Position numbers and translations under genes: made by a program. Under the pieces are notes generated by a model. That model had not been told where the DNA came from. It saw nothing but the letters and a program-made list of their open reading frames with translations, and searched no databases. A stretch of 64,000 bases of DNA, from NCBI RefSeq assembly GCF_009914755.1, contig NC_060947.1. One strand, given 5' to 3'. This DNA is from the human T2T-CHM13v2.0 reference genome, Homo sapiens. This document shows, one piece after another, positions 8,531-15,183 of the stretch (position 1 is the first letter of the stretch; each line of letters starts with the position of its first letter).

Positions 8531-8672
8531 GAATGTACTGGGTTTACTGGGTCACCACAAAACAATCTAGTTAAGCCTTTGGACCATTATCTGCCTAGCT
8601 ATGAGGAAAACATTTGCTTTGCAGATGCTCTTATTTTATTCTTCTCTTCCTTAGATAATCTAAGAAGAAGCC

Positions 8673-8695
8673 ATGAAGCAATTGCTGTATGACTG
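8673..8695 (+). CDS. ARSH: Candidate upstream coding exon of ARSH (exon 8655-8695, encodes MKQLLYD+TG, phase 2)
   Basis: Polypyrimidine acceptor ttattttattcttctcttccttag ends at 8654; gaagccATG at 8673; donor TG|GTGAGC at 8695/8696; phase matches the acceptor at 15033/15034. Inferred from sequence only, no transcript evidence available. Confidence 0.6.
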
Positions 8696-9489
8696 GTGAG
8701 CTGGCAAATTCACGAACATTCATCACTCTCCATTTCTAGAGAGAAGGATTCTTTGTCAAGGTTTTCTCTATCCTGGAGGACTTGGGTTAAATATGTGCTT
8801 AAAATGTCCTTTATGAGGGTGGATTATCAATTATTCCTCATATTTTATTCAAGCTGTGCTTTCTATTTTTTGTCTTTTATTTATTTATGTAATTTTTTTC
8901 TTTTTTATAGAGATTGGGTCTCACTATGTTGCCCAGGCTGGTCTCAAACTCCTGGACTCAAGGGATCCTCCCATCTCGGCCTCCCTAAGTGCTGGAATTA
9001 GAGGCATGAGCTGCTATGCCCAGCCTACTGTCTATATTTTCAAGCCATAACTAAATTCACACTGGTTTATGATGTTCATATCATCTTTGTGGATTTGTAT
9101 TTTTATTATTCTATAATAGTCTTGCCATTCTATATTAATGATTTTTCAATTGTAATTTTCTTCTGGCTGATGTTATTATTGTTACAAGTTTCTTTTGATT
9201 ACTACTTGGCTGGCCTACTTAGATGTTTACATCTTTTTAGTTTCAAGTTTTGTTTGTCATTAGGTTTTAGGTGTGTCCTTTAAGAAAGACATAGGACAGA
9301 TTTTTAAAAATTAGTATGGGATTCTTTAATAGGCAGGTAAACCCACCCACATTTGTTATAAATATTAAGATAGTTGATCTTATTTCTGTCATCTTACATG
9401 CTATCTTATATTTTCAAGATTCTCCTGTGGTTTTCTTTTTTCCCCTCTTGCTTTTTACGGGCTGCATTAAGGGTTCTCTGTTTCCTGGC

Positions 9490-10124
9490 TGATATGGTTT
9501 GGCTGTGACCCCACCCAAATCTCAGGTTGAATTGTAATAATCCCCACGTGTCAAGGGAGGAGCCCAGTGGAGATAATTGAATCATGGCAGTGGTTTCCCC
9601 CACACTGTTCTCATGATAGTGAATGAGTCTCATGAGATCTGATGGTTTTATAAATCGGAGTTCCCCTGCACAAGCTCTCTTGTCTGCCTCCATGTAAGAT
9701 GTGCCTTTGCTTCTCCTTTGCTTTCCACCATGATTGTGAGGCCTCCTCAGCCATGTGGAACTGAGTCTATTAAACCTCTTTCCCTCACGCCTGTAATCCC
9801 AGCACTTTGGGAGGCCGAGGTGGGCAGATCACGAGGTCAGGAGATTGAGACCATCCTGGCTAACACGGTGAAACCCCATCTCTACCAAAAATACAAAAAA
9901 TTAGCCGGGCGTAGTGGTGGGCGCCTGTGGTCTCAGCTACTCGGGAAGCTGAGGCACAGGAGAATGGTGTGAACCTGGGAGGTGGAGCTTGCAGTGAGCT
10001 GAGATCGTGCCACTGCAGTCCAGCCTGGGCAACAGAGAGAGACTCTGTCTCAAAAAAAAAAAAAAAAAAAAATTACCCAGTCTCAGGTATGTCTTTATTA
10101 GCAGTGTGAGAGCAGACTAATACA
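9490..10124 (+). mobile_element. THE1/MST-type MaLR LTR interrupted by an AluY-like insert (about 9783-10071)
   Basis: Starts TGATATGGTTTGGCTGTG, ends GACTAATACA; the Alu carries gagattgagaccatcctggctaacacgg. Confidence 0.9.
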
Positions 10125-10444
10125 CTGGCCCATCCTTCTCCCCTCAAGTGGCCTGGTAACTGTACCTCATGTTTCCCTTAATCATATTAACATCATTATT
10201 AACTTACCAAAATATGATGGTTAATCTCTATTTCCAGCTTCCTTTTGAAGAAAGGAAAGACTGGAGAATGTTTGAACACCACAGTCCTACCCACCCCGCC
10301 CCACCTTCCTCCATGTAATTACCGCTTAGTGAATTATTTACTCCTTTCCAAAATAATAATAATTAATAATAGTTTCTGTCAATGCGTATTTAATGTTATC
10401 AACATGTTTTATCTCTTTTCAACATCTTTTCTTATGTCTACCCT

Positions 10445-10750
10445 TTTATTTTTATTTATTTATTTTTGAGACGGAGTCTTGCTCTGTCACCCAGGCTGGA
10501 GTATAGTTGTGTGATCTCAGCTCACTGCAACCTCCACCTCCCAGGTTCAAGCGATTCTCTTGCTTCAGCCTCTTTAGTAGCTGGGATTACAGGCACATGC
10601 CACCATGCCTGGCTAATGTTTGTATTTTTAGTAGACAAGGGGTTTCACTATGTTGGCCAGGCTGGTCTCCAACATCCAACCTCAAGTGATCCACCTGCCT
10701 CGGCCTACCAAAGTGTTGGAATTACAGGCATGAGCCACTGCACTTGGCCT
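10445..10750 (-). mobile_element. Alu
   Basis: Full antisense dimer. Confidence 0.92.
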
Positions 10751-11229
10751 GTCTACTCTTTCTTTCTAAGATAAGTTTGCCTTTTGCTGAAAATATTCCT
10801 TAGTAGATTTTCATCAAGAGTTTTTGGGTTCATGTACAATCCAAATGCCTGTAATCCCTATTCATTCTTCAATGATGTATTAGAAGGGTTTGGAACTCTG
10901 AGTTCAGAGTGACTTTTGTCTCAGCACTCTGGAAGCAATGGTCCCTGGTCATCAGGCATCCACTGTGGCTGTTGGGAAGTCTCTTGACATTCCAGTTATC
11001 CTCCCATTTTAGGTTATCTGTGGTTGTGTTTAAACCAAGTGCCTCTGTCTCCATCATTGCCCTTTACTGAGCTAGGTCTAACTGGAGGTTTTTAATTTTT
11101 TTAACTGGGTTCAGTCTGAAAACTTATGTCTGTCTTCAATCCTGAAAAATTCTTAGCCAAGATATCTTTCAATGTATCATCTCCCTATCCTCATCCTTAA
11201 ACCCTCTTAATAGTAGGCTGGGACTTTTT

Positions 11230-11480
11230 GTCCAAAACCATAGAATGTACAACAGCAAGAGTGACCCTTAAATTAAACTATGGACTTTGGGAGATAATGA
11301 TTTCTCAATGTAGGTTCATTGATTGTATCAGATAATGTACCATCTTGTTGCCGGGTGTTGATAATGGAGGAAGCTATTACATATGTAGGGGCAGGGGATA
11401 TGTGGGAACTTTCTGTACCTATGCTCAATTTTTCTGTGAACCTAAAACTGCTCTAAAAAATAAGTCTATTTAAAAAAAAA
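11230..11480 (+). mobile_element. Old L1M 3' end
   Basis: taaactatggactttgg...ctgtgaacctaaaactgctctaaaaaataa. Confidence 0.75.
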
Positions 11481-13039: not shown

Positions 13040-13185
13040 TAAAGCTCTATCACTCAGCTTCAAAAAAAAAAAAAAAAAAAAAAGAATACGTGAATACTGA
13101 CAGAGTTAAACCTTGGAAAGTTTCTTTTCTAAAAAGGAAACTTTAAAAGTTTTTATTTTTAATTGACAAATAATAATTGTTTATA

Positions 13186-14152
13186 GGCTGGGCACGATGG
13201 CTCACACCTCTCAGCACTTCAGGAGGCCGAGGTGGGAGGATCACCTGAGGTCAGGAGTTCAAGACATGCCCGGCCAACATGGCGAAACGCCATCTCTACC
13301 AAAAAAAATACAAAAATCAGCTGGGCATGGTGCCACACACACATACACACACACACACACACACCCCTATAAGCCTCATAAATATGAACAATTATTATTA
13401 TTTTTTGAGACAGAGTCTCTCTCTGTTGCCCAGGCTGCAGTGCAGTGGCGCGATCTTGGCTCGCTGCAACCTCCGCCTCTCAGGTTCAGGCAATTATCCC
13501 TGCTTCAGCCTCCCGAGCAGATGGTATTACTTTTTTTTTTTTTTTGAGACGGAGTCTCACTCTTGCTACCCAGGCTGGAGTGCAGTGGTGCAATTTCAGC
13601 TCACTGCAACCTCCGCCTCCTGGGTTCAAGTGATTCTCCTGCCTCAGCCTCTGAAGTAGCTGGGACCACAGGCGCGTGTCACCATGCCCGGTTAATTTTG
13701 TATTTTTAGTAGAGATGGGGTTTCACCATGTTTGTCAAGCTGGTCTCAAACTCCTGACCTCAGGTATTCCACTTGCCTTGGCCTCTCAAAGCACTGGGAT
13801 TACAGGCATGAGCCACTGTGCCCGGCCTTGGTTACATTTTTATTCAATAAAGTAAACAAAAAAGTTTTTTTTGAGATAGGGTCTTGCTCTATTGTCTAAG
13901 CTGGAGTGCAGTGGTGCATTCATAGCTCACTGCAATCCTGACCTCTCAGGCTCAAGCAATCCTCTCATCTCAGCCTCCTGAGTAGCTGGGATTATAGGAA
14001 TGCATCACTATGCCCAGCTATTTTTGTATTGTTTGTAGAGATGGGGTTTCACCATGCTGCCCAGGCCAGTCTCAAACTTCTGGGCTCAAATGATCCACCC
14101 GCATTGGCCTTCCAAAGTGCTGGGATTACAGGCATGAGTCACAGCACCCGGC
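13186..14152. mobile_element. Alu cluster (one + monomer, one partial and two full antisense Alus)
   Basis: Alu consensus motifs throughout. Confidence 0.88.
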
Positions 14153-14309
14153 AAAATTCAATTTTTAGAGCTTACCCTCAACTGTAACCCCTGTTATAAA
14201 TTTTAAGCCTCTGATGTCACTAAAACAATATCAAAAGATGTTATAAGAGTTAAACCTCATCATGCTTGCAAAATGAATTGGTAAAATATGATGCCATATT
14301 CGTATAGAA

Positions 14310-14839
14310 CAATGGTCTCCAACATTTTTGGCACCAGGGTCTGGTTTTGTGGAAGACGGTTTTTCCACAGACAGGAAGGGGGTGCAGGATGGTTTCAGGA
14401 TGATTCAAGCACATTACATTTATTGTGCACTTTATTTTTATTATTATTACACGATAATATATAATGAAATAATTATACAACTCATCGTAGTGTATGATCA
14501 GTGGGTGCCCTAAGCTTGTTTTCCTGTGACTAGATGATCCCATCTGGGGGTGATGGAAGACAGAGACAGATCATCAGGCATTAGATTCTCATAAAGAGCA
14601 CACAACCTAGATCCTTTGCATGCACAGTTCACAATAGAGTTCTCGCTCCTATGAGAATCTAATGCTGCTACCGATCTGACAGGAGGTGGAGCTCAGGCAG
14701 TGATGCAAGCAATGGGGAGCGGCTGTCAATACAGATGAAGCTTCACTCATTTGCCCACCACTCACCTCCTGCTGTGTGGCCTGGTTGCTAACAGGCTACG
14801 GACCAGTACTGGTCCATGGCCAGGGGATTGGGGACCCCG
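14310..14839. mobile_element. MER1A-like hAT-Charlie DNA transposon, full length
   Basis: Perfect 8-bp TSD GTATAGAA (14302-14309, 14840-14847); degenerate inverted termini caatggtctccaac / attggggaccccg; 530 bp. Confidence 0.88.
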
Positions 14840-15033
14840 GTATAGAACATTAGTTTTTGTTGTTGTTGTTTAATCTAGTTTCTGAGTAAGACAACACAGG
14901 TACGTTGTACAGTGAGAACTGATAACGAATATCACTGTTTCATATGTTAAGTTATCTAAAATGCAAATGTTAATTGATAGTGCCTGGTTTTTTGCTTGCT
15001 TGTTTGTTTGCTTATTTCTAAAAATGCTTTCAG

Positions 15034-15091
15034 GAGCTGCTGGCTGTCAGTGTCCCTGTGCTGTTTGTTTTGCGGTGTTGATGGCACATTT
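15034..15091 (+). CDS. ARSH: In-frame N-terminal extension of ARSH exon 1 ([19 protein letters not shown]), signal-peptide-like
   Basis: Acceptor tttcag| at 15033 after a T-rich tract; stop-free and in frame with MTRNARP; hydrophobic core ending in V-D-G. Confidence 0.6.
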
Positions 15092-15183
15092 ATGACAAGA
15101 AACGCCAGACCCAACATTGTCCTGCTGATGGCAGATGACCTTGGAGTGGGGGATTTGTGCTGCTACGGTAATAACTCAGTGAG
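15092..15183 (+). CDS. ARSH: Arylsulfatase H, first coding exon of the 562-aa form ([30 protein letters not shown])
   Basis: Sulfatase N-terminal motif [12 protein letters not shown] with the metal-binding DD; donor AG|GTAAAG; 92 nt. Confidence 0.95.

What the first reader, a model, noticed from the sequence alone, without database searches (positions are those of the whole stretch)
8655..15183. Hidden upstream exon would give ARSH the signal peptide its 562-aa form lacks
Seen: 8655-8695 is a well-formed exon, with a long polypyrimidine tract + AG, 18 nt of UTR, gccATG, 23 coding nt and a GTGAGC donor. The ATG at 15092 is preceded by a phase-2 acceptor at 15033 and 19 open codons. Splicing gives [37 protein letters not shown]..., 589 aa, with a basic n-region, a hydrophobic core and a V-x-G cleavage-type motif. 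Known: sulfatases must enter the ER for SUMF1/FGE to convert the CxPxR Cys to formylglycine. From recall, paralogues STS, ARSE/ARSL and ARSF start in a tiny phase-2 exon (23 coding nt in ARSE), and reference ARSH starts at MTRNARP with no signal peptide. Inference: the reference model is 5'-truncated, and constructs built on it may be mis-targeted and inactive. Some predicted gene models may already include this exon.
Basis: partly seen in the sequence, partly recalled or inferred. Interest (0 to 1): 0.85.

Follow-up and report, generated by a model that had tools for sequence, protein, structure and literature searches.

The report
Unannotated first coding exon of ARSH
A tiny 41-base exon 6.3 kb upstream of the human ARSH reference start matches the start of ARSH in many other mammals and would restore the secretion signal that this sulfatase needs to be activated.

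Summary
AG 8653-54, an 18-nt leader, ATG 8673, 23 coding nt and GT 8696 are all present. AG 15032-33 is followed by 19 open codons running into the RefSeq ATG 15092. In-silico splicing gives a stop-free 589-aa frame.

It is not chance. A profile of 13 orthologue N-terminal octamers, scanned over all 84,122 stop-free octamers of the window, ranks 8673 first: 22.7 against 17.0 for the next, background mean -9.0, sd 4.5. ARSH models of 588-589 aa begin M-x6-W followed by the same hydrophobic stretch in lemur, donkey, cattle, cats, bats, tree shrew, seal, ferret, a possum and an elephant shrew.

The paralogue ARSL starts in an exon of the same build: acceptor, 20-nt leader, 23 coding nt, phase 2. 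ARSD and STS have a phase-2 intron at the same place.

The RefSeq Met is Val in 29 of 43 orthologue models. It sits in a weak start context behind an out-of-frame ATG.

Human RNA evidence, primate DNA alignments and SignalP could not be run. I found no printed mention. This is a likely annotation correction, useful but not surprising.

The parts
8630..8654 (+). Polypyrimidine tract and AG acceptor in front of the mini-exon. This implies at least one further non-coding exon upstream, which was not located.
   Evidence: 18 of 20 pyrimidines at -23..-4, top 1.2% of 962 AG sites in 1..15033.
8655..8672 (+). 18-nt purine-rich leader of the mini-exon. An in-frame TAA at 8661-63 means the frame cannot open further upstream.
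   Evidence: ARSL has a 20-nt purine-rich leader in the same place.
8673..8695 (+). Proposed true start of the ARSH coding sequence: ATG plus 23 coding nt (MKQLLYD plus TG of a split Trp codon). This is the n-region of the signal peptide.
   Evidence: top of 84,122 octamers against the orthologue profile..
8696..8701 (+). Donor GTGAGC, phase 2.
   Evidence: 5 of 7 consensus positions, against 4-6 for annotated ARSH donors.
8696..15033 (+). Proposed intron of 6,338 nt, ending tttcAG.
   Evidence: The acceptor is homologous in place and phase to those of ARSF, ARSD and STS, and to ARSL of other mammals.
15025..15033 (+). First 9 nt of the RefSeq mRNA. Under this model they are the last 9 nt of the intron (tgctttcag).
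   Evidence: Hub gene table.
15034..15091 (+). 58 nt now annotated as 5' UTR that would be coding: G completing Trp8, then 19 codons giving the hydrophobic core and the V-D-G cleavage-type end of the signal peptide.
   Evidence: 16 uncharged residues, Kyte-Doolittle 1.93 over 15; homologous to coding sequence in the orthologue models.
15081..15095 (+). Out-of-frame ATG 15081 and its 4-codon frame ending in a TGA that overlaps the RefSeq ATG. It is an obstacle in the RefSeq model only.
15092..15183 (+). Annotated coding part of the exon, beginning at the RefSeq Met. This would be residue 28 of the 589-aa form.
   Evidence: Hub table.

Best explanation
Positions 8655-8695 are the human copy of the ancestral first coding exon of ARSH. 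It is a 41-nt internal exon with an 18-nt leader and 23 coding nt, and it splices in phase 2 to AG 15033. The full human frame is then 589 aa.

The first 8 residues (MKQLLYDW, the Trp split TG|G) and the next 17 ([17 protein letters not shown]) would together form an ER signal peptide. It has Lys2 as the n-region, a 16-residue uncharged core, and Val at -3 and Gly at -1 before a cut ahead of TFMTRNA.

The inferred mechanism is as follows. The nascent chain is targeted co-translationally to the ER. There the formylglycine-generating enzyme can convert the Cys of CTPSR (residue 82 of the long form), and the sequons can be glycosylated.

The 562-aa RefSeq model starts at a non-conserved internal Met because its 5' end stops 9 nt inside the intron. 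The sequence features and their homology are shown here. Use of the junction in human RNA, cleavage and ER entry are inferred.
For: 1. The anatomy is exact and the joined frame is 589 aa without a stop.

2. Orthologues. Of the 40 hits at E<=0.001 to the exon-2 peptide, 12 begin M-x6-W at residues 1-8. One (dog) carries it at 21-28 and one low-quality hyena model ends in R. Two more hits, a marsupial possum and an elephant shrew, also begin this way. Human MKQLLYDW is 6 of 8 identical to donkey MKQPFYDW.

3. A blind scan of the window with the 13-octamer profile puts 8673(+) first of 84,122: 22.69 against 17.0 for the next, mean -9.03, sd 4.46.

4. Paralogues. Human ARSL (P0280) starts in a 43-nt exon with acceptor ttacag, a 20-nt leader, ATG plus 23 nt, and donor gtaaga. 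ARSL of capuchin, colugo, manatee, elephant, pig and tarsier reads M-x6-W and then joins at the acceptor homologous to 15033. ARSD (P0260 on L006) and STS (PDB 8eg3_A residue 5 is the first full codon of the exon) have a phase-2 intron at the same spot.

5. The RefSeq Met aligns to V in 29, M in 5 and another residue in 9 of the 43 models that extend upstream. Its context is tttATGa, against gccATGa at 8673, and an out-of-frame ATG sits at 15081.

6. The contiguous genomic frame upstream of 15092 has no ATG before the stop at 14978-80, so an extension needs splicing.

7. The hydrophobic core is comparable to orthologues and to ARSL. The RefSeq N-terminus has only IVLLMA followed by DD. Mature STS (1p49_A) begins at residue 22, so its signal likewise spans the tiny exon and the start of the next one.

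8. The whole 562-codon frame, including CTPSR, is intact. By inference this argues for a functioning, and hence ER-targeted, protein.
Against: No human transcript data could be examined, and the only human model in the hub table starts at 15025.

The representative anthropoid models seen begin at or after MTRNARP or carry unrelated N-termini (gibbon, mandrill, mangabey, two marmoset entries). None shows the extension. The tarsier and slow loris models also lack it.

Human positions 4-5 are LL where most orthologues have PF.

By my rough estimate from general rates, keeping seven splice and start bases and 27 codons intact is not improbable over tens of millions of years of neutral drift. So intactness alone does not prove present use.

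No CpG island or recognisable promoter was seen in 1..16000, and the upstream non-coding exon implied by the acceptor was not found.

The orthologue models are mostly automatic predictions. The signal-peptide call rests on hydropathy and the -3/-1 rule, not on a trained predictor.
Confidence: 0.78

Rival explanations
1. Relic exon. The mini-exon is the ancestral first coding exon, but in the human or anthropoid lineage it is no longer transcribed or spliced in. Transcripts start near 15025 as in RefSeq. They give a signal-less 562-aa product, or effectively none, and the gene is on its way to decay.
For: The single human RefSeq model starts at 15025 (hub table). Anthropoid representative models start at MTRNARP. 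There are two substitutions in the octamer relative to the common PF. No promoter-like CpG island was seen upstream. Reviews list no known activity, substrate or location for ARSH (tables seen).
Against: 15025 lies inside a conserved polypyrimidine/AG acceptor, an unlikely natural cap site. The start context at 15092 is weak and an out-of-frame ATG precedes it. All splice signals, the ATG and the 27 extra codons are intact. The 562-codon frame with the catalytic motif is intact, which is hard to square with a protein that cannot reach the activating enzyme (inference). Primate models may simply copy the human reference protein (inference).
Confidence: 0.14
2. Two products. The long ER-targeted form comes from the hidden exon. 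A short signal-less form starts at Met 15092, from a downstream start site or leaky scanning, and does a non-catalytic job in the cytosol.
For: Met at this position exists in human and a minority of species, 5 of 43 internal. A cDNA-based reference with that start exists (hub table).
Against: The context at 15092 is poor, with an overlapping out-of-frame ATG. No data point to a second promoter. A sulfatase domain without formylglycine has no known cytosolic role (established knowledge of the family).
Confidence: 0.07
3. Chance. This is an accidental ATG..GT in an intergenic stretch that happens to be in phase with an accidental AG.
For: 262 ATG..phase-2-GT candidates exist upstream of 15033, and 14 have an equally good donor.
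Against: Only this one matches the orthologue N-termini. It is the best of 84,122 octamers in the window, about 7 sd above the mean. Its build mirrors the ARSL start exon.
Confidence: 0.01

Closest known systems
ARSH gene models of other mammals, 588-589 aa (for example Bos taurus P0009, Equus asinus P0003, Lemur catta P0002, Trichosurus vulpecula P0202)
   Same: They start with an 8-residue M-x6-W piece followed by (S/N/T)CWLS...LCCLFGG..G-TF and then (V/M)TRN(S/A)[11 protein letters not shown]. The length matches the human joined frame of 589 aa.
   Different: Human has LL for PF at residues 4-5 and Met for Val at residue 28. The human reference annotation omits the exon (hub table). Their DNA could not be fetched, so exon boundaries in those species are inferred from the proteins.
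Start exon of the neighbouring paralogue ARSL (ARSE), G000:C23 around 2572866, minus strand
   Same: A tiny internal exon with a strong acceptor, a purine-rich leader of about 20 nt, ATG plus 23 coding nt, and a phase-2 donor after TG. In several mammals the split codon is also Trp, joined at the homologous acceptor.
   Different: Human ARSL uses an acceptor 12 nt further upstream, giving Cys plus LCFR. Its intron is about 2 kb rather than 6.3 kb. The peptide is MLHLHHS rather than MKQLLYD.
Steryl-sulfatase (STS) signal peptide
   Same: The initiator Met lies in a separate upstream coding piece joined in phase 2 at the homologous acceptor. The signal runs across the junction, and the mature chain begins 4 residues before RPNI.
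   Different: Only 11 coding nt lie upstream, inferred from residue numbering in 8eg3_A. The signal is 21 residues against a predicted 25. Cleavage in STS is supported by the solved mature chain 1p49_A, while for ARSH it is only predicted.

Membership tests
Orthologous first coding exon of the STS/ARSL/ARSD/ARSH sulfatase cluster | An ATG followed by 3n+2 coding nt and a GT donor (phase 2) | tested here: met
   ATG 8673, 23 nt, GT 8696. ARSL has 23 nt, ARSD 44 nt and STS 11 nt, the last two inferred from residue numbering.
Orthologous first coding exon of the STS/ARSL/ARSD/ARSH sulfatase cluster | A downstream acceptor at the homologous cag|G, in the same phase | tested here: met
   ARSH, ARSF, ARSD and STS all read cag|G with the same frame. 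ARSL has the same site 12 nt after the one human ARSL uses.
Orthologous first coding exon of the STS/ARSL/ARSD/ARSH sulfatase cluster | Encoded peptide resembles the N-termini of ARSH orthologues | tested here: met
   6 of 8 identical to donkey, muntjac and dog octamers. Rank 1 of 84,122 in the window.
Orthologous first coding exon of the STS/ARSL/ARSD/ARSH sulfatase cluster | Present in mature human mRNA | not testable with these tools
   No RNA-seq, EST, CAGE or long-read data are on hand. The hub table has one human transcript and it lacks the exon.
Cleavable ER signal peptide | A short n-region with a positive charge | tested here: met
   Lys2, though Asp7 also lies in the n-region.
Cleavable ER signal peptide | An uncharged hydrophobic core of about 7-15 or more residues within the first 30 | tested here: met
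   16 uncharged residues from residue 8. Kyte-Doolittle mean is 2.21 over 11 and 1.93 over 15, similar to ARSL at 1.83 and the orthologues at 1.31-2.09.
Cleavable ER signal peptide | Small or neutral residues at -3 and -1 of the cleavage site | tested here: met
   V-D-G before TF. Gly occupies the matching position in most orthologue rows listed. The rule itself is recalled (von Heijne).
Cleavable ER signal peptide | Positive call by a trained predictor, and experimental cleavage | not testable with these tools
   SignalP or an equivalent is not available. No experiment exists.
Formylglycine-dependent sulfatase (Pfam PF00884) | CxPxR motif and sulfatase domain | tested here: met
   CTPSR at residue 82 of the long form. 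PF00884 is precomputed for the orthologue hits.

The most novel reading that the evidence does not exclude
Humans make two ARSH proteins. One is the ancestral 589-aa ER-targeted enzyme from the hidden exon. The other is a 562-aa signal-less form initiated at a Met that most mammals lack (Val in 29 of 43 models). The short form would never meet the formylglycine-generating enzyme and would act as a cytosolic pseudo-enzyme.
Probability: 0.07. Interest if true: 0.65.

Novelty: new member of a known kind. Interest (0 to 1): 0.48.

Why it matters
ARSH is one of the human sulfatases whose location and substrate are still listed as uncharacterised. I saw this in Table 2 of PMC9330403 and in a table of PMC7279497.

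If the reference protein lacks its signal peptide, several things built on the 562-aa frame would be compromised:
- ORF clones, such as the purchased ARSH plasmid used in PMC11157809 (methods passage seen; which frame that plasmid carries is not stated there).
- Structure models and localisation predictions.
- Start-loss and 5' UTR variant calls.

Under the extended model, the 27 extra codons, the two new splice sites and ATG 8673 become coding or essential bases for variant interpretation on Xp22.33. The correction makes the question "what does ARSH do?" properly testable.

The finding is not conceptually new, because the same exon is already in the gene models of many mammals.

Tried and rejected
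- A DNA search of the whole human assembly with 8600-8760 found only the region itself. The mini-exon therefore has no DNA-level paralogue detectable that way; homology to ARSL shows only in architecture.
- The one search of 1.84 billion representatives with the 49-aa exon peptide returned mostly short unnamed fragments and did not help to sort the paralogues (333 hits at E<=0.001, best 150 listed).
- The sigma-70 promoter and terminator scan on 8300-8700 is a bacterial model and says nothing about a human gene.
- A CpG and GC scan of 1..16000 found no island. Only two 400-nt windows, spanning 12601-13200, reached a CpG observed/expected ratio of 0.6 or more. No promoter or upstream non-coding exon could be proposed.
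- Five literature searches found no paper discussing the ARSH N-terminus. One apparent hit was an author name in a reference list.
- The paper that first described ARSH (looked up by PubMed id) is not held, so what it says about a signal peptide is unknown to me.
- The ARSF start exon was not located.
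Full report
**Observation**

- A 25-nt pyrimidine-rich stretch ends in AG at 8653-54.
- The next 41 nt (8655-8695) are an 18-nt purine-rich leader, gccATG at 8673 and 23 coding nt.
- GTGAGC follows at 8696.
- At the annotated first exon, tttcAG ends at 15033. G 15034 and 19 open codons ([19 protein letters not shown]) run into the RefSeq ATG at 15092.

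A script joined 8673-8695 to 15034-15183 and then to the annotated coding exons. The result is 1770 nt, or 589 aa, with no internal stop. It is identical to the 562-aa frame from residue 28, with CTPSR at residue 82.

The leader holds an in-frame TAA at 8661-63, so 8673 is the first possible start in that frame (print). The contiguous genomic frame upstream of 15092 has no ATG back to the stop at 14978-80. Any N-terminal extension therefore needs a splice.

**Is it more than chance?**

Form alone is not rare. Upstream of 15033 there are 262 ATG..GT combinations that would join in phase. Fourteen of them have a donor matching at least 5 of 7 consensus positions, and eight of those have a purine at -3 of the ATG.

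The splice signals are nonetheless of gene quality:
- The donor scores 5 of 7, against 4-6 of 7 for the eight annotated ARSH donors.
- The acceptor at 8654 has 18 of 20 pyrimidines, against 12-17 for the annotated acceptors. It is in the top 1.2% of 962 AG sites.
- The acceptor at 15033 has 13 of 20.

The decisive test was independent of form. I built a BLOSUM62 profile from the first eight residues of 13 ARSH orthologue models and scanned every stop-free octamer in all six frames of the 64-kb window, 84,122 in all. Position 8673 on the + strand came first with 22.69. The next scored 17.0, the mean was -9.03 and the sd 4.46.

**Orthologues**

The 49-aa translation of 15035-15183 was searched against longer proteins and gave 40 hits at E<=0.001 among 44 candidates, nearly all named arylsulfatase H.

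- Twelve begin M-x6-W at residues 1-8, followed by (S/N/T/H/I/R)-C-W-L... These are Lemur catta, Equus asinus, Hipposideros larvatus, Muntiacus, Bison, Bos, Microcebus, a cat cluster, Desmodus, Tupaia, Mirounga and Mustela. Most are 588-589 aa.
- A dog entry carries the octamer at residues 21-28, behind a further in-frame piece.
- A low-quality hyena model ends the octamer in R.
- A second search with exon 4 (120 hits at E<=1e-30 among 696 candidates) added a marsupial (Trichosurus, 589 aa, starting MNLLSNDW then SCW...) and an afrotherian (Rhynchocyon, 589 aa).

The architecture is therefore at least as old as therian mammals. Human MKQLLYDW shares 6 of 8 residues with the donkey, muntjac and dog octamers.

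Some results do not fit as well. The anthropoid representatives seen start at MTRNARP (gibbon, mandrill, mangabey) or carry unrelated N-termini (two marmoset entries). Slow loris starts at the same Met, and tarsier three residues earlier. I cannot tell whether that reflects biology or models copied from the human reference protein. No human or ape representative with the extension appeared. The database is clustered at 90% identity, however, so such members could be hidden.

**The RefSeq start**

I checked 49 ARSH-type models. One lacked the anchor motif and 48 had it. Of those 48, 43 extend more than five residues upstream of RPNI. In these 43, the residue aligned with the human RefSeq Met is:
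- Val in 29;
- Met in 5;
- another residue in 9.

Four models start exactly at that Met.

The context of ATG 15092 is tttATGa, with no purine at -3 and no G at +4. An out-of-frame ATG at 15081 opens a 4-codon frame whose TGA overlaps it. ATG 8673 has G at -3.

The RefSeq mRNA begins at 15025 (hub table). That is 9 nt inside the tgctttcag that ends the proposed intron. By inference, this looks like a 5' end set by prediction or primer rather than a cap site.

**Paralogues**

Searching the human assembly with the same 49 aa found the homologous exons of the neighbouring genes. I assigned them to ARSL, ARSF, ARSD and STS by position against the hub table and by the named proteins or PDB chain below. 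Y-linked copies and more distant sulfatases also appeared.

All four X-linked paralogues have cag|G at the same place and in the same frame as 15033. For three of the four the upstream coding piece is confirmed by protein evidence; for ARSF only the acceptor was seen.

| Paralogue | Evidence | Upstream coding piece |
|---|---|---|
| ARSL | The human protein from the database starts MLHLHHS-C-LCFRSW. Its first seven codons lie in a 43-nt exon on the minus strand near C23:2572866: acceptor ttacag, 20-nt purine-rich leader, ATG plus 23 nt, donor gtaaga. | 23 nt, phase 2.
| ARSL in other mammals | Capuchin, colugo, manatee, elephant, pig and tarsier read M-x6-W and continue from the acceptor homologous to 15033. 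Human ARSL uses an AG 12 nt earlier. | Same exon, different acceptor downstream. |
| ARSD | Human ARSD (P0260) laid on its exon. | 14 codons plus 2 nt. |
| STS | PDB chain 8eg3_A places the first full codon of the homologous exon at residue 5. The mature chain 1p49_A begins at residue 22. | 11 coding nt. The signal peptide straddles the junction. |
| ARSF | Only the shared acceptor was seen. | ATG exon not located. |

**Signal peptide**

No trained predictor was available, so I used simple measures.

The joined human N-terminus has Lys2. It has a 16-residue uncharged run from residue 8, with mean Kyte-Doolittle hydropathy of 2.21 over 11 residues and 1.93 over 15. It ends V-D-G before TF. The values sit within the range of the orthologues (1.31-2.09 over 15) and of ARSL (1.83).

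The RefSeq N-terminus offers only IVLLMA followed by two Asp. From recalled family knowledge, I take that stretch to be the first strand of the sulfatase fold rather than a targeting signal.

From established knowledge of the family, the catalytic Cys is converted to formylglycine in the ER lumen. A signal-less form would therefore be expected to stay inactive. This step is inference.

**Most likely mechanism and rivals**

Best reading, about 0.78: this is the orthologous first coding exon, intact in human, and the reference model is 5'-truncated.

The main rival, about 0.14, is that the exon is a relic no longer used in anthropoids. By my rough estimate, intact start and splice bases and 27 open codons are not improbable under some tens of millions of years of drift. 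Against the relic idea:
- the whole 562-codon frame and its catalytic motif are intact;
- the RefSeq 5' end lies inside an acceptor;
- the internal ATG is a poor start.

A two-product reading is possible, at about 0.07. Chance is excluded.

**Known or new?**

The exon is already in the gene models of many mammals, so the kind of feature is known. For human, the hub's RefSeq table lists a single transcript without it. My five literature searches found no discussion of the ARSH N-terminus.

What I saw of each paper:
- The original description of ARSH was not held.
- Tables in two reviews list ARSH location and substrate as unknown or uncharacterised (PMC9330403; PMC7279497).
- A methods passage in a 2024 paper reports a purchased ARSH plasmid (PMC11157809).
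- A passage in a 2026 paper on ARSL names the gene cluster (PMC13254587).
- A passage in PMC2650720 describes how ARSH was found by motif search.

I could not see current GENCODE, Ensembl or UniProt. Supplements were not consulted.

**Verdict**

The finding is real, well-founded and useful. It is an unannotated human copy of a known exon that restores the signal peptide of a poorly studied sulfatase. It is worth a curator's and a bench scientist's attention, but it is not a surprise to a specialist. Interest about 0.5.

Noticed in passing
window 15081-15095: An out-of-frame ATG (ttgATGg) opens a 4-codon frame whose TGA overlaps the RefSeq ATG (ATGGCACATTTATGA). In the RefSeq model it is an upstream ORF. 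In the extended model it is ordinary coding sequence.
   Followed up: partly
L003 (G000:C23:2569242-2572382, minus strand) and L012: Human ARSL joins its 23-nt start exon to an AG 12 nt upstream of the acceptor that ARSL of several other mammals, and ARSH, appear to use. This gives Cys plus LCFR in place of Trp.
   Followed up: partly
L009 (G000:C24:16452292-16455369): The Y-linked STS-like copy has a stop inside the stretch homologous to the STS signal peptide (ttccgtgagaag against ttctgtgggaag). This shows how the segment decays when it is not maintained.
   Followed up: no
window 8500-8530: A run of about 21 A preceded by actctgtctc sits about 125 nt upstream of the mini-exon acceptor. From recall it looks like the 3' end of an Alu.
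   Followed up: no
window 12601-13200: The only 400-nt windows in 1..16000 with a CpG observed/expected ratio of 0.6 or more (0.67-0.73, GC 0.44-0.49). They lie inside the proposed intron and are not an island by the usual criteria.
   Followed up: no
protein P0194: A 306-aa database protein with no source name is 100% identical to ARSH exon 4 but has an unrelated N-terminus. It looks like an automatic prediction on human-like contigs (15 members, 130 contigs).
   Followed up: no
protein P0018 (dog): A dog ARSH entry reads 20 further residues in frame ahead of the MKQLFYNW octamer. In dog the mini-exon is thus modelled as internal and open upstream. In human an in-frame TAA at 8661-63 closes that possibility.
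   Followed up: partly
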